Positions 60,343-60,591 are shown, counted from the stretch's first letter. The stretch is DNA of 64,000 bases from Escherichia coli (GCF_001677475.2 NZ_CP015229.1); one strand, 5' to 3'. Translations and numbers: made by a program. Notes: generated from the sequence alone by a model not told the origin.

Positions 60343-60591
60343 ATGGCAGAAAGAAATGATAAGCCGCCTAAACCGGTTGCTGTCAGTCGGAGAATAATCA
60401 AAGGGCTTAGTCAATGCGAGCGGTGCAAGAAAACAAGGCTGGAGTGCCGCCGCATAGCGATGTCAGACGGAACAAGAATCGTCGCCTGTTTTGATTGTAT
60501 GACCGCCAAAAGCATAACTGGTAAAAAGCAAAAAAAGCTCAAAGTGTTTGAAATTTTAACCGCCTTTGAATCATCTCGACGAAAGCACTAA
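60343..60591 (+). CDS. Hypothetical Cys-rich small protein (possible zinc ribbon)
   Basis: 82-aa ORF with CxxC-x6-C...CxxC spacing and a basic C-terminal tail. Confidence 0.45.
   Translation: MAERNDKPPKPVAVSRRIIKGLSQCERCKKTRLECRRIAMSDGTRIVACFDCMTAKSITGKKQKKLKVFEILTAFESSRRKH

What the first reader, a model, noticed from the sequence alone, without database searches (positions are those of the whole stretch)
60343..60591. Cys-rich 82-aa protein between the small protein gene and the excisionase
The spacing CxxC-x6-C and a later CxxC, with a lysine-rich tail, suggests a zinc-ribbon nucleic-acid-binding protein. It is divergently arranged relative to the 70-aa/HEPN genes and co-directional with xis-int, so it could be an island regulator. 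No family assignment is possible from reading alone.
Basis: inference. Interest (0 to 1): 0.35.

Follow-up and report, generated by a model that had tools for sequence, protein, structure and literature searches.

The report
Orphan zinc-finger gene beside prophage excisionase
The 82-codon gene is real and encodes a small, very basic, probably zinc-binding protein carried as an optional accessory gene just upstream of the excisionase in lambda-like prophages; it belongs to no described family, its function is unknown, and here it sits in a decayed prophage rather than as an island regulator.

Summary
Window 60343-60591 (+) is an intact 82-aa ORF with a GGAGGA ribosome-binding site. It has Cys at 25, 28, 35, 49 and 52, a Lys-rich tail, net charge about +13 and pI 10.3.

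It is a real gene. About 10 clusters of 82-aa homologues (57-94% identity) keep all five Cys. Synonymous sites are saturated and dN/dS is 0.03-0.18. Distant 105-194-aa relatives occur on Photobacterium and Shewanella mobile DNA.

In relatives it is the last gene of the lambdoid early-left (exo-xis) region, always just before an excisionase-type gene. Five unrelated xis types follow it. It occurs with or without the divergent 70-aa and HEPN genes, and most comparable prophages lack it.

The window "island" is a recently acquired lambdoid prophage that has lost its left part. "Island regulator" is not supported. The most likely role is an optional nucleic-acid-binding early accessory protein. 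Interest is low to moderate.

The parts
60343..60591 (+). 82-aa CDS, stop codon included: a basic, five-Cys, predicted zinc-binding protein
   Evidence: ORF. Homologues. Purifying selection. The identical protein is deposited as 'hypothetical protein'.
60379..60522 (+). Predicted zinc-finger core, residues 13-60. Strand 13-18 (RRIIKG), C25/C28 knuckle, hairpin 36-40/45-48, C49/C52 at the helix start. Invariant C35 lies next to the second strand.
   Evidence: AlphaFold model, pLDDT 86-92 over residues 11-50. The same core appears in the 158-aa homologue. Invariant columns are K-G-x-S-x-C-x2-C-x3-R-L-E-C-R...G...C-x-D-C.
60562..60588 (+). Conserved extreme C-terminal tail AFESSRRKH. The marine homologues carry (V)SGSYGSGK at the equivalent place. 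It may be a short linear docking motif.
   Evidence: Alignments. pLDDT is low (56-61) in the model, so it is probably disordered.
60333..60338 (+). Shine-Dalgarno sequence GGAGGA, 4 nt before the ATG
   Evidence: Sequence. Conserved in every lineage.
60318..60323 (+). -10-like hexamer TATACT. It is TATAAT in most other lineages, at a fixed 17-19 nt from the ATG. It is a possible weak local promoter, but no convincing -35 element is present.
   Evidence: The consensus promoter scan did not call it.
60280..60292 (+). Left junction of the optional 82-aa cassette. ATAGCCAGTTATG is the left arm and loop of an inverted repeat (ATAGCCAG-N7-CTGGCTAT). The repeat is intact in prophages that lack the 82-aa gene.
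   Evidence: Comparison with loci that have and lack the gene.
60600..60626 (+). Intrinsic terminator between the 82-aa gene and xis: a 7-bp stem AGCCGCC/GGCGGTT followed by a T-run
   Evidence: -11.1 kcal/mol. Present in every lineage with different, compensating stems. Also present before xis in loci that lack the 82-aa gene, so it is a general pre-xis feature.
60627..60640 (+). Conserved junction GCCTGGAGA, which carries the xis ribosome-binding site. It is shared in front of unrelated xis genes.
60641..60886 (+). Excisionase (DUF1233 type), the downstream neighbour
   Evidence: Pfam PF06806, 4.8e-33. PHROG 539.
60932..62233 (+). Tyrosine integrase (Arm-DNA-bind_2 plus Phage_integrase domains). 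Its 3' end carries the att core 62185-62203.
60016..60228 (-). Divergent 70-aa gene (phrog_27283). This is an independent module, not an obligate partner.
59015..59833 (-). HEPN-like 272-aa gene, the upstream neighbour on the opposite strand. It belongs to the same prophage block in a sub-lineage.
   Evidence: Pfam RiboL-PSP HEPN 7.4e-4, below the cutoff. PADLOC RTasHEPN 3.8e-8. Conserved in intact prophages L081, L083 and L084.

Best explanation
The gene encodes a small protein (82 aa, pI about 10.3). It most likely binds one zinc ion through C25, C28, C49 and C52 in a treble-clef-like fold: a zinc knuckle, a beta-hairpin and a helix start.

It is an optional accessory cassette occupying the last slot of the early-left (pL, 'exo-xis') region of lambdoid prophages of Enterobacteriaceae. 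This slot lies immediately upstream of a conserved intrinsic terminator and the excisionase gene.

In intact relatives the gene would be transcribed together with xis-int by antiterminated pL transcription after induction or infection. A weak local promoter (the conserved -10-like hexamer) is possible. Its transcripts would stop at the pre-xis terminator, so the gene could be expressed alone.

I infer that the protein binds nucleic acid (DNA or RNA) through its invariant basic strand and surface: RRIIKG, K30, R32, R36, R37 and the Lys-rich linker. Its invariant, probably disordered C-terminal tail (AFESSRRKH) would dock on a partner protein. Like other exo-xis proteins, it would tune host or phage gene expression around the lysis-lysogeny and excision decision without being essential.

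In this window the gene sits in the 3.5-kb right-end remnant of such a prophage, acquired recently and truncated. pL is gone, so any expression here depends on the local promoter.

Shown here: the gene is real, it is under constraint, its family is small and unannotated, its genomic slot, its optional presence, and the predicted fold. Inferred: zinc binding, nucleic-acid binding, timing of expression and biological role.
For: - Reality and constraint.
- Five invariant Cys and an invariant basic core, kept even in relatives of 30-40% identity.
- Confident core models with the same topology in two subfamilies.
- Charge of +13 to +22 in all members.
- Position as the last early-left gene before xis in intact lambdoid prophages (cI, N, kil, gam, recT/erf, exo ... 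[82 aa], xis, int).
- Optional presence between conserved flanks.
- Conserved SD, a -10-like hexamer at fixed distance and a downstream terminator.
- The window block is 99.5-100% identical to intact prophages in other genera, and the same remnant without the IS3 occurs in other E. coli assemblies.
- Exo-xis genes are early pL-transcribed, non-essential modulators, with a variable gene set between ea22 and xis: PMC8614690, PMC3824215 and PMC6213356 abstracts.
Against: - There is no experimental or homology-based evidence for zinc or nucleic-acid binding. Fold searches are non-significant.
- The models come from shallow alignments of 11-13 sequences.
- The fifth invariant Cys (C35) is unexplained.
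- The -10-like hexamer lacks a -35 element, and the promoter scan did not call it.
- The terminator is not specific to the cassette.
- High basicity is also compatible with binding an acidic protein or the ribosome.
- No expression data were available.
- In the window itself the sequence is too recently acquired to show selection in this host.
Confidence: 0.55

Rival explanations
1. It is an accessory factor or regulator of excision. The protein would act on xis-int, either as an architectural DNA-binding co-factor at att or as a controller of read-through of the terminator that separates it from xis. This is the nearest reading to the first reader's 'island regulator'.
For: - In every locus examined the gene lies directly upstream of an excisionase-type gene, across five unrelated xis types: DUF1233, P22-type 116 aa, lambda-like 90 aa, and two AlpA/HTH_17 types.
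- A terminator always lies between the gene and xis.
- The marine homologue in L008 is flanked by two serine-recombinase genes.
Against: - The terminator and GCCTGGAGA junction precede xis equally in prophages that lack the gene. Adjacency is therefore explained by a shared mosaic junction.
- Most prophages with near-identical xis/int lack the gene: L042 and L045 (xis 95-100% identical), phage CobraSix (Int 96%), and about 18 of about 23 loci bearing the 70-aa gene.
- One protein is unlikely to serve five unrelated Xis/Int systems specifically.
- The terminator stems differ between lineages while the protein core is invariant.
- L077 has no integrase next to the gene.
Confidence: 0.12
2. It is a lysogen-expressed 'moron'. 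The cassette would be transcribed from its own promoter in the repressed prophage and benefit the host, for example through exclusion of other phages or modulation of a host regulator, independently of the lytic programme.
For: - Present or absent between conserved flanks.
- A TATAAT or TATACT hexamer at a fixed 17-19 nt from the ATG in otherwise unrelated upstream contexts.
- Its own strong SD.
- An intrinsic terminator directly downstream would insulate xis from such transcription.
- It is retained intact in the E. coli remnant together with the reverse-oriented HEPN and 70-aa genes.
Against: - No -35 element or extended -10, and no call by the promoter scan.
- The terminator is not cassette-specific.
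- The gene is co-oriented with pL, unlike the clearly reverse-oriented 70-aa and HEPN genes.
- No PADLOC match.
- Retention in the remnant is uninformative because the acquisition is very recent.
Confidence: 0.2
3. It is a protein-binding inhibitor rather than a nucleic-acid binder. The zinc module would be a scaffold, and the invariant C-terminal tail would dock onto and inhibit a host enzyme or defence protein, making it an anti-defence or host-takeover factor.
For: - The extreme C-terminal motif is invariant (AFESSRRKH). Distant plasmid homologues have an equivalent aromatic-Ser-basic tail (SGSYGSGK).
- The tail is predicted to be disordered.
- The gene occurs on both prophages and plasmids.
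- Early-left regions are rich in anti-restriction and host-takeover genes, with Ral, Lar-like, Kil, Gam and TraR-like genes in the same loci.
Against: - No similarity to any known anti-defence protein.
- The very high positive charge is spread over the whole protein, including the invariant beta-strand, which is more typical of nucleic-acid binders.
- No partner is identifiable from gene neighbourhood.
Confidence: 0.13

Closest known systems
Bacteriophage lambda Ea8.5 (and Orf55), the phage-specific genes between ea22 and xis in the exo-xis region
   Same: - Same genomic slot: a small, non-essential, phage-variable gene at the xis-proximal end of the pL early-left operon (PMC8614690).
- Ea8.5 is also a zinc-finger-containing protein of unknown role that has been suggested to be a transcription factor.
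   Different: - No sequence relationship (hhalign probability 0.4%).
- Ea8.5 is described as a hybrid homeodomain/zinc-finger fold (PMC8614690). This protein is predicted as a three-stranded sheet plus a short helix, with a basic N-terminal arm and Lys-rich tail.
TraR/DksA-type C4 zinc-finger proteins (lambda Orf73, Pfam PF01258)
   Same: - A small exo-xis-region protein with a CxxC...CxxC zinc site.
- A loosely similar local pattern, C-x-E/R-C...E-x-RR...C-x-D-C.
   Different: - No Pfam match at E<=1, and hhalign probability is 2%.
- The spacing is 20 rather than 17 residues.
- It lacks the N-terminal helix with the acidic tip and the ExxRK hallmark described for Orf73/TraR (PMC8614690).
- A separate bona fide TraR-like gene co-resides in the same prophages (L003-7, L014, L019).
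Treble-clef zinc fingers (e.g. C1 domains, ribosomal protein L24e)
   Different: - It has a single predicted zinc site rather than two as in C1 domains.
- There is no sequence similarity and no functional parallel.
Small basic zinc-finger regulators of temperate phages (Mu Com, P2 Ogr/P4 Delta); recalled from my own knowledge, not tested beyond the Pfam scan
   Same: Size, basic character, a Cys4 site and phage origin. These proteins bind mRNA (Com) or RNA polymerase (Ogr) to switch on specific genes.
   Different: - No Pfam match to these families.
- Different Cys spacing.
- Different genomic position.
Phage 'morons' (independent transcription units inserted between conserved phage genes); concept from my own knowledge
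   Same: - Optional presence between conserved flanks.
- Its own SD.
- A -10-like hexamer upstream and an intrinsic terminator downstream.
   Different: - The promoter is unproven, with no -35 element.
- The terminator belongs to the general pre-xis junction and is present without the gene.

Membership tests
   The first CxxC lies in a turn between strands, which is knuckle-like. The second, C49-x2-C52, lies at the end of strand 3 and the start of a helix in both models. That is the treble-clef arrangement. This rests on prediction only, from shallow alignments.
Treble-clef zinc finger | A zinc knuckle, a beta-hairpin, and the last two ligands at the first turn of an alpha-helix | tested here: met
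   [not shown]
Any zinc-binding protein | Stoichiometric zinc bound by four Cys/His ligands | not testable with these tools
   Only inferred, from five invariant Cys and the predicted fold.
TraR/DksA C4 zinc finger (PF01258; lambda Orf73) | Match to the family profile, an N-terminal helix with an acidic tip, and a C4 site with about 17-residue spacing | tested here: not met
   No Pfam hit at E<=1. hhalign probability is 2% against a co-resident TraR-like protein. The N-terminus is basic and disordered.
Lambda Ea8.5 family | Sequence or profile similarity to Ea8.5 | tested here: not met
   hhalign probability 0.4%. No PDB sequence hit to the Ea8.5 homologues.
Lar-type restriction-alleviation zinc ribbon | Profile similarity, including the CPFCG knuckle | tested here: not met
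   hhalign probability 2.6% against the Lar-like protein of L019. No Pfam hit.
Excisionase / recombination directionality factor | A winged-helix or HTH fold of Xis, AlpA or DUF1233 type | tested here: not met
   No Pfam or PHROG match to any excisionase family. The predicted fold is a beta-sheet plus a short helix around Cys ligands. The true xis is the next gene.
Fungal-type Zn2Cys6 binuclear cluster (considered because of the C-x2-C-x6-C...C-x2-C spacing) | Six Cys in the pattern CX2CX6CX5-12CX2CX6-8C, and a match to the Zn_clus profile | tested here: not met
   Only five Cys are present, the loop is 13 residues, and no sixth ligand follows. No Pfam hit. The predicted structure is beta-rich.
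Moron (autonomous transcription unit in a prophage) | Optional presence between conserved genes | tested here: met
   Loci with the same 70-aa gene and the same xis exist with and without the 82-aa gene.
Moron (autonomous transcription unit in a prophage) | Its own promoter and its own terminator | tested here: inconclusive
   A conserved -10-like hexamer is present, but there is no -35 element and no call by the scan. The terminator is present but is shared with loci that lack the gene.
Known anti-phage defence component | Match to a PADLOC model | tested here: not met
   No hit for the 82-aa protein or its 158-aa homologue.

The most novel reading that the evidence does not exclude
The protein founds an undescribed family of mobile-element zinc fingers shared by enterobacterial lambdoid prophages and marine Vibrionaceae/Shewanella plasmids. 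Its signature is KG-x-S-x-C-x2-C-x3-RLECR...C-x-D-C plus a C-terminal aromatic-Ser-basic tail. In this reading it acts as a portable, recombinase-independent controller placed next to site-specific recombination modules. It would bind nucleic acid at or near the pre-xis terminator junction, or dock a host factor through its tail, to gate when excision or resolution genes are expressed.
Probability: 0.1. Interest if true: 0.5.

Novelty: new member of a known kind. Interest (0 to 1): 0.27.

Why it matters
[quoted passage not shown] Its small proteins shift the lysis-lysogeny balance by unknown mechanisms. This gene adds a well-delimited, strongly constrained, unannotated zinc-finger family to that region.

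The family is easy to test. It has naturally occurring isogenic contexts with and without the gene, and it is carried by a prophage that has recently moved between genera.

If the protein turns out to control excision timing or to hijack a host factor, it would be a useful small module. Otherwise it is one more accessory ORF, which is the more likely outcome.

For annotation, the result corrects 'island with a regulator' to 'truncated lambdoid prophage with an optional early gene'.

Tried and rejected
1. Family assignment by sequence gave nothing for the 82-aa protein or its distant homologues. I tried Pfam, PHROGs, NCBIfam, PADLOC, PDB phmmer and a profile search.
3. Homology to lambda Ea8.5, to a co-resident TraR-like protein and to a Lar-like protein was rejected by hhalign.
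4. The Zn2Cys6-like Cys spacing is a coincidence. There is no sixth Cys, the loop is 13 residues against the pattern's 5-12, and there is no profile match.
5. I first read the downstream terminator as part of a self-contained cassette. I rejected this because the same terminator-GCCTGGAGA junction precedes xis in loci that lack the gene.
6. After I first thought the HEPN-like gene was a window-specific insertion. Searches corrected this: the HEPN, 70-aa and 82-aa block is 99.5-100% identical in intact prophages of other genera.
7. The 17-codon upstream in-frame extension seen in some loci (MSKLLQHW...) is not conserved. In the window a stop codon follows that ATG, so the annotated ATG after GGAGGA is the start.
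8. Several searches found no copy: 5426 complete RefSeq E. coli genomes (near and distant modes), INPHARED phages, PLSDB plasmids and GTDB representative genomes. The gene is nevertheless present in GenBank E. coli, Enterobacter, Citrobacter and Leclercia assemblies.
9. Rfam gave only a sub-threshold chance hit, 23.9 bits against a 99-bit cutoff.
10. BLAST-like hits to F-box/WD40, LIM and PHD proteins and to a BspA-type Cys-rich repeat protein, P0012, were treated as compositional noise.

Full report
**1. Observation**

Window 60343-60591 (+) is an 82-codon ORF. Its product is MAERNDKPPKPVAVSRRIIKGLSQCERCKKTRLECRRIAMSDGTRIVACFDCMTAKSITGKKQKKLKVFEILTAFESSRRKH. Cys residues lie at 25, 28, 35, 49 and 52, with codons verified.

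A GGAGGA Shine-Dalgarno sequence (60333-60338) lies 4 nt before the ATG. The protein has 22 Lys+Arg against 8 Asp+Glu, pI 10.3 and net charge +13.5. Only 3 of 159 ATG-started ORFs of at least 60 aa in the window carry CxxC-x10-30-CxxC. From my own knowledge, the other two look like FlhC and a NapC/NirT-type cytochrome.

The gene is divergent from a 70-aa gene (60016-60228, -) and a HEPN-like gene (59015-59833, -). It is co-directional with xis (60641-60886; DUF1233, E 4.8e-33) and a tyrosine integrase (60932-62233).

**2. It is a real, constrained gene**

A search of about 5.8 billion proteins found 10 clusters of homologues. All are exactly 82 aa and 68-94% identical to the window protein. 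IMG/VR viral contigs gave 10 more loci, down to 57% identity. In the alignment 43 of 82 columns are invariant, including all five Cys, RIIKGLS, RLECRRI, MSDG, ITGK and the C-terminal F-E-S-x-R-R-x-H.

Across nine distinct coding sequences the synonymous sites are near saturation (pS 0.5-1.0) while pN is 0.05-0.22. dN/dS is 0.03-0.18 wherever it can be computed.

The closest relative is L076, 96% identical in nucleotides. It differs by five non-synonymous and three synonymous changes, and all five fall in variable alignment columns. An upstream in-frame ATG seen in some loci is not conserved, because the window has a stop codon after it. The annotated start therefore stands.

**3. No known family**

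Nothing matched the protein in any of these searches:
- Pfam, PHROGs, NCBIfam and PADLOC.
- PDB sequence and profile searches.
- tblastn against 50,697 phage records and 72,556 plasmid records.

An exhaustive HMMER scan of 1.84 billion cluster representatives found only the family itself, one fragment, one spurious Cys-rich repeat protein, and one true distant relative.

Profile searches then recovered a small second subfamily of 105-194 aa from Photobacterium kagoshimensis, Shewanella sp. and metagenomes. These sit on contigs with Rep3/ParA/resolvase or transposase/integrase genes.

The second subfamily shares the core K-G-x-S-x-C-x2-C-x3-R-L-E-C-R ... G ... C-x-D-C, including the fifth Cys. 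It ends in (V)SGSYGSGK, which aligns with AFESSRRKH. All members are strongly basic (pI 10.0-10.4).

The exact window protein is deposited as 'hypothetical protein' (ANO89648.1 and others; 'MULTISPECIES ... Enterobacteriaceae'). Close variants come from E. coli, Enterobacter hormaechei, Enterobacter kobei, Citrobacter portucalensis and Leclercia.

**4. Predicted structure**

AlphaFold2 on the 13-sequence alignment gave mean pLDDT 76.7, with 86-92 over residues 11-50. The elements are:
- Strand 13-18 (the invariant RRIIKG).
- The C25/C28 pair in the following turn.
- A hairpin at 36-40 and 45-48.
- C49/C52 at the start of a short helix.
- A low-confidence Lys-rich region and C-terminal tail.

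An independent model of the 158-aa Photobacterium homologue gave the same core (pLDDT 88-92). That model is preceded by a confident helical hairpin and a disordered basic linker.

Zinc binding through C25, C28, C49 and C52 is therefore an inference. The role of the invariant C35 is open.

**5. Genomic slot**

In intact relatives the gene is the last gene of the lambdoid early-left operon. The order is cI ... N, kil, gam, recT or erf, exo, DUF1317, methylases, TraR-like ... [82 aa], xis, int. This corresponds to the variable, xis-proximal part of the 'exo-xis region'. The literature describes that region as transcribed early from pL, non-essential, and able to modulate lysogenisation and induction. 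In lambda the slot holds ea8.5 and orf55 (PMC8614690; PMC3824215 and PMC6213356).

The gene directly precedes five unrelated excisionase-type genes:

| Downstream xis type | Loci |
|---|---|
| DUF1233 xis with Arm-DNA-bind_2 Int | window, L002-7, L019, L021-22, L076, L080-85 |
| P22-type 116-aa Xis with a 387-aa Int | L010-12 |
| AlpA-type gene with a reverse-oriented Int | L013 |
| Lambda-like 90-aa Xis with a 361-aa Int | L014 |
| A second HTH_17-type xis, not called by the gene finder | L077 |

Upstream neighbours differ as well. They are a dATP/dGTP pyrophosphohydrolase gene (L002-7), a 90-aa gene (L010-12), an AlpA-like gene (L077), or the reverse-oriented 70-aa gene (window, L014-16, L018-19, L076, L080-85).

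**6. The cassette and its flanks**

Three features recur in all lineages:
- A TATAAT hexamer (TATACT in the window, 60318-60323; TATGAT in L016) at a fixed 17-19 nt from the ATG.
- The SD sequence.
- An intrinsic terminator a few bases after the stop codon.

The terminator stems differ between lineages but always pair: AGCCGCC/GGCGGTT in the window, ACCCCG/CGGGGT, CCTCGC/GCGGGG and CAGCCGCC/GGCGGCT elsewhere. Their folding energies are -10.7 to -14.2 kcal/mol and each is followed by a T-run. After the terminator comes GCCTGGAGA and the xis start.

No -35 element accompanies the hexamer, and the consensus scan did not call a promoter. The terminator-GCCTGGAGA junction is not specific to the cassette. 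Among IMG/VR loci found with the 70-aa protein (49 loci), about 23 are close relatives sitting next to xis/int. Only five of those contain the 82-aa gene. The others go from the conserved 70-aa-gene promoter region, through an inverted repeat (ATAGCCAG-TTATGAG-CTGGCTAT), straight to the same kind of terminator and junction before xis. Some have xis 95-100% identical to the window's (L042, L045).

The 82-aa gene is thus an optional insert. Its left junction in the window is at about 60292/60293, and its right junction is the shared pre-xis terminator. This shared junction explains the invariable adjacency to xis without requiring a functional link.

**7. What the window 'island' is**

A 141-nt direct repeat links 56818-56958 and 62079-62219 (79% identical). 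Its exact 19-nt core, TGCCCCATCCATGCCCCAC, lies at 56924 and 62185, with a third degenerate copy at 58353. The repeat marks att-type duplications at the 3' end of integrase genes next to fliE.

Three GenBank E. coli assemblies (L080, L082, L085) are 99.9-100% identical to the window, except that they lack the IS3 copy at about 57033-58259.

From window position 58780 rightwards, the sequence runs Dam C-terminus, HEPN-like gene, 70-aa gene, 82-aa gene and xis. This stretch is 99.5-100% identical in nucleotides to intact lambdoid prophages integrated next to fliE (L081, L083, L084). In those bacteria fliE/fliF are only 75-82% identical to the window's, so they belong to other genera.

The window element is therefore the right-hand 3.5 kb of a recently transferred lambdoid prophage that has lost everything left of the Dam gene, including pL and N. 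The fusion ORF 58428-59018 (YedK-like SRAP N-terminus plus Dam C-terminus) is the deletion scar.

Because the acquisition is so recent, the intact ORF in this genome says nothing about selection in E. coli. Any expression here must come from a local promoter.

**8. Interpretation**

I judge the following the most likely (confidence about 0.55). The gene is an optional early-left accessory gene. Its product is a zinc-stabilised, treble-clef-like, highly basic small protein that binds nucleic acid. An invariant, disordered C-terminal tail probably docks a partner. Like other exo-xis proteins, it would modulate host or phage expression around induction and excision without being essential.

The rivals are:
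- **A lysogen-expressed moron (0.20).** It is favoured by the conserved -10-like hexamer and the downstream terminator. It is weakened by the absence of a -35 element and by the terminator not being cassette-specific.
- **A tail-mediated protein inhibitor or anti-defence factor (0.13).**
Strict adjacency to xis, and to resolvases in L008, is suggestive. It is undercut by the shared junction, by the gene's absence from most prophages with the same xis/int, and by its association with five unrelated Xis types.

The 70-aa and HEPN-like genes are independent modules. The 82-aa gene occurs without them, the 70-aa gene mostly occurs without it, and no PADLOC system covers them as a set.

**9. Comparison with known families**

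- **Lambda Ea8.5.** By position the nearest analogue is Ea8.5, a small zinc-finger protein just upstream of xis with an unknown role. There is no homology (hhalign probability 0.4%) and the described fold is different.
- **TraR/Orf73, Lar, Ogr/Com-type fingers, Zn2Cys6 clusters and excisionases.** None passes a membership test. See the membership table.
- **Treble-clef fingers.** The protein resembles them in predicted topology only.

I classify it as a new, unannotated family of a known kind: a small zinc-finger accessory ORF of the lambdoid exo-xis region.

**10. Verdict**

'Zinc-binding, probably nucleic-acid-binding' is reasonable but unproven. 'Zinc ribbon' is better stated as treble-clef-like. 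'Island regulator' is not supported.

Interest is 0.27. A specialist would find a tidy, testable orphan family with natural with-and-without-gene contexts and cross-genus spread, but nothing that overturns expectations.

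Noticed in passing
window 59015-60228 (- strand); L081, L083 and L084 at 7673-8886: A reverse-oriented two-gene block sits inside the early-left operon of intact lambdoid prophages and is 99.5-100% identical to the window. It comprises a HEPN-like gene (272 aa by the ORF list, 265 aa as called in relatives; GC 0.35) and a 70-aa gene (phrog_27283). The HEPN-like gene scores 3.8e-8 against PADLOC RTasHEPN and 7.4e-4 against Pfam RiboL-PSP HEPN, which is below the Pfam cutoff. It looks like a lysogen-expressed defence or toxin-like module. The 70-aa gene also occurs alone in many prophages.
   Followed up: partly
window 60600-60640; the same position in L002, L010, L014, L019, L025-L047 and L077: An intrinsic terminator followed by TTTTTGCCTGGAGA precedes at least five unrelated excisionase genes, with or without the 82-aa gene. 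It looks like a conserved mosaic junction that insulates xis-int from non-antiterminated upstream transcription.
   Followed up: partly
L030, L038, L042, L043 and L045, between the 70-aa gene and xis; window 60280-60292 keeps only the left arm: Prophages that lack the 82-aa gene carry a perfect inverted repeat, ATAGCCAG-TTATGAG-CTGGCTAT, overlapped by AACTG-ATAGC-CAGTT. It lies in the conserved 70-aa/xis spacer. It could be an operator or an RNA hairpin, and the 82-aa cassette begins inside its loop.
   Followed up: no
window about 57033-58259: An IS3-family element (orfA 57920-58204, orfB 57051-57863, - strand) is the only difference between the window and three otherwise 99.9-100% identical E. 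coli assemblies (L080, L082, L085).
   Followed up: yes
window 58428-59018: A chimeric ORF. Residues 1-128 are YedK-like SRAP (NCBIfam PRK09951, 1.3e-79), about 78% identical in nucleotides to the host's own yedK. The C-terminus is the end of a phage Dam methylase. It marks the deletion that removed the left part of the prophage. Homology to intact prophages starts at 58780.
   Followed up: partly
window 56818-56958, 58353-58371 and 62079-62219: Three att-like copies are present, with the core TGCCCCATCCATGCCCCAC exact at 56924 and 62185 and degenerate at 58353. The first lies in an integrase 3' remnant (intG-like). This suggests successive integrations and decay at the fliE-adjacent site.
   Followed up: partly
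window 58780-60886 compared with L081, L083 and L084: The prophage block is 99.5-100% identical in nucleotides across hosts whose fliE/fliF are only 75-82% identical. The integrase gene next to it is mosaic (87-98%). This indicates very recent inter-genus transfer and recombination at the xis/int boundary.
   Followed up: yes
L008 6924-10016; L009 6687-7163; L074 7001-7318: Marine homologues of 105-194 aa add an N-terminal helical hairpin and a long disordered basic linker. In L008 the gene lies in a three-gene same-strand cluster flanked by two serine-recombinase genes and near a Rep3 replication gene.
   Followed up: partly
window 55513-56631 (- strand): An intact 372-aa leucine-rich-repeat protein (DUF5503 in relatives; yedN-like) lies next to the att region. 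From my own knowledge, the K-12 counterpart is a pseudogene.
   Followed up: no
collection level: None of 5426 complete RefSeq E. coli genomes contains this 82-aa gene or its variants. Even so, the identical protein is recorded on 25 contigs, including a 5.5-Mb one, and in several GenBank E. coli assemblies. The remnant is therefore confined to a rare lineage or to assemblies outside that set.
   Followed up: no
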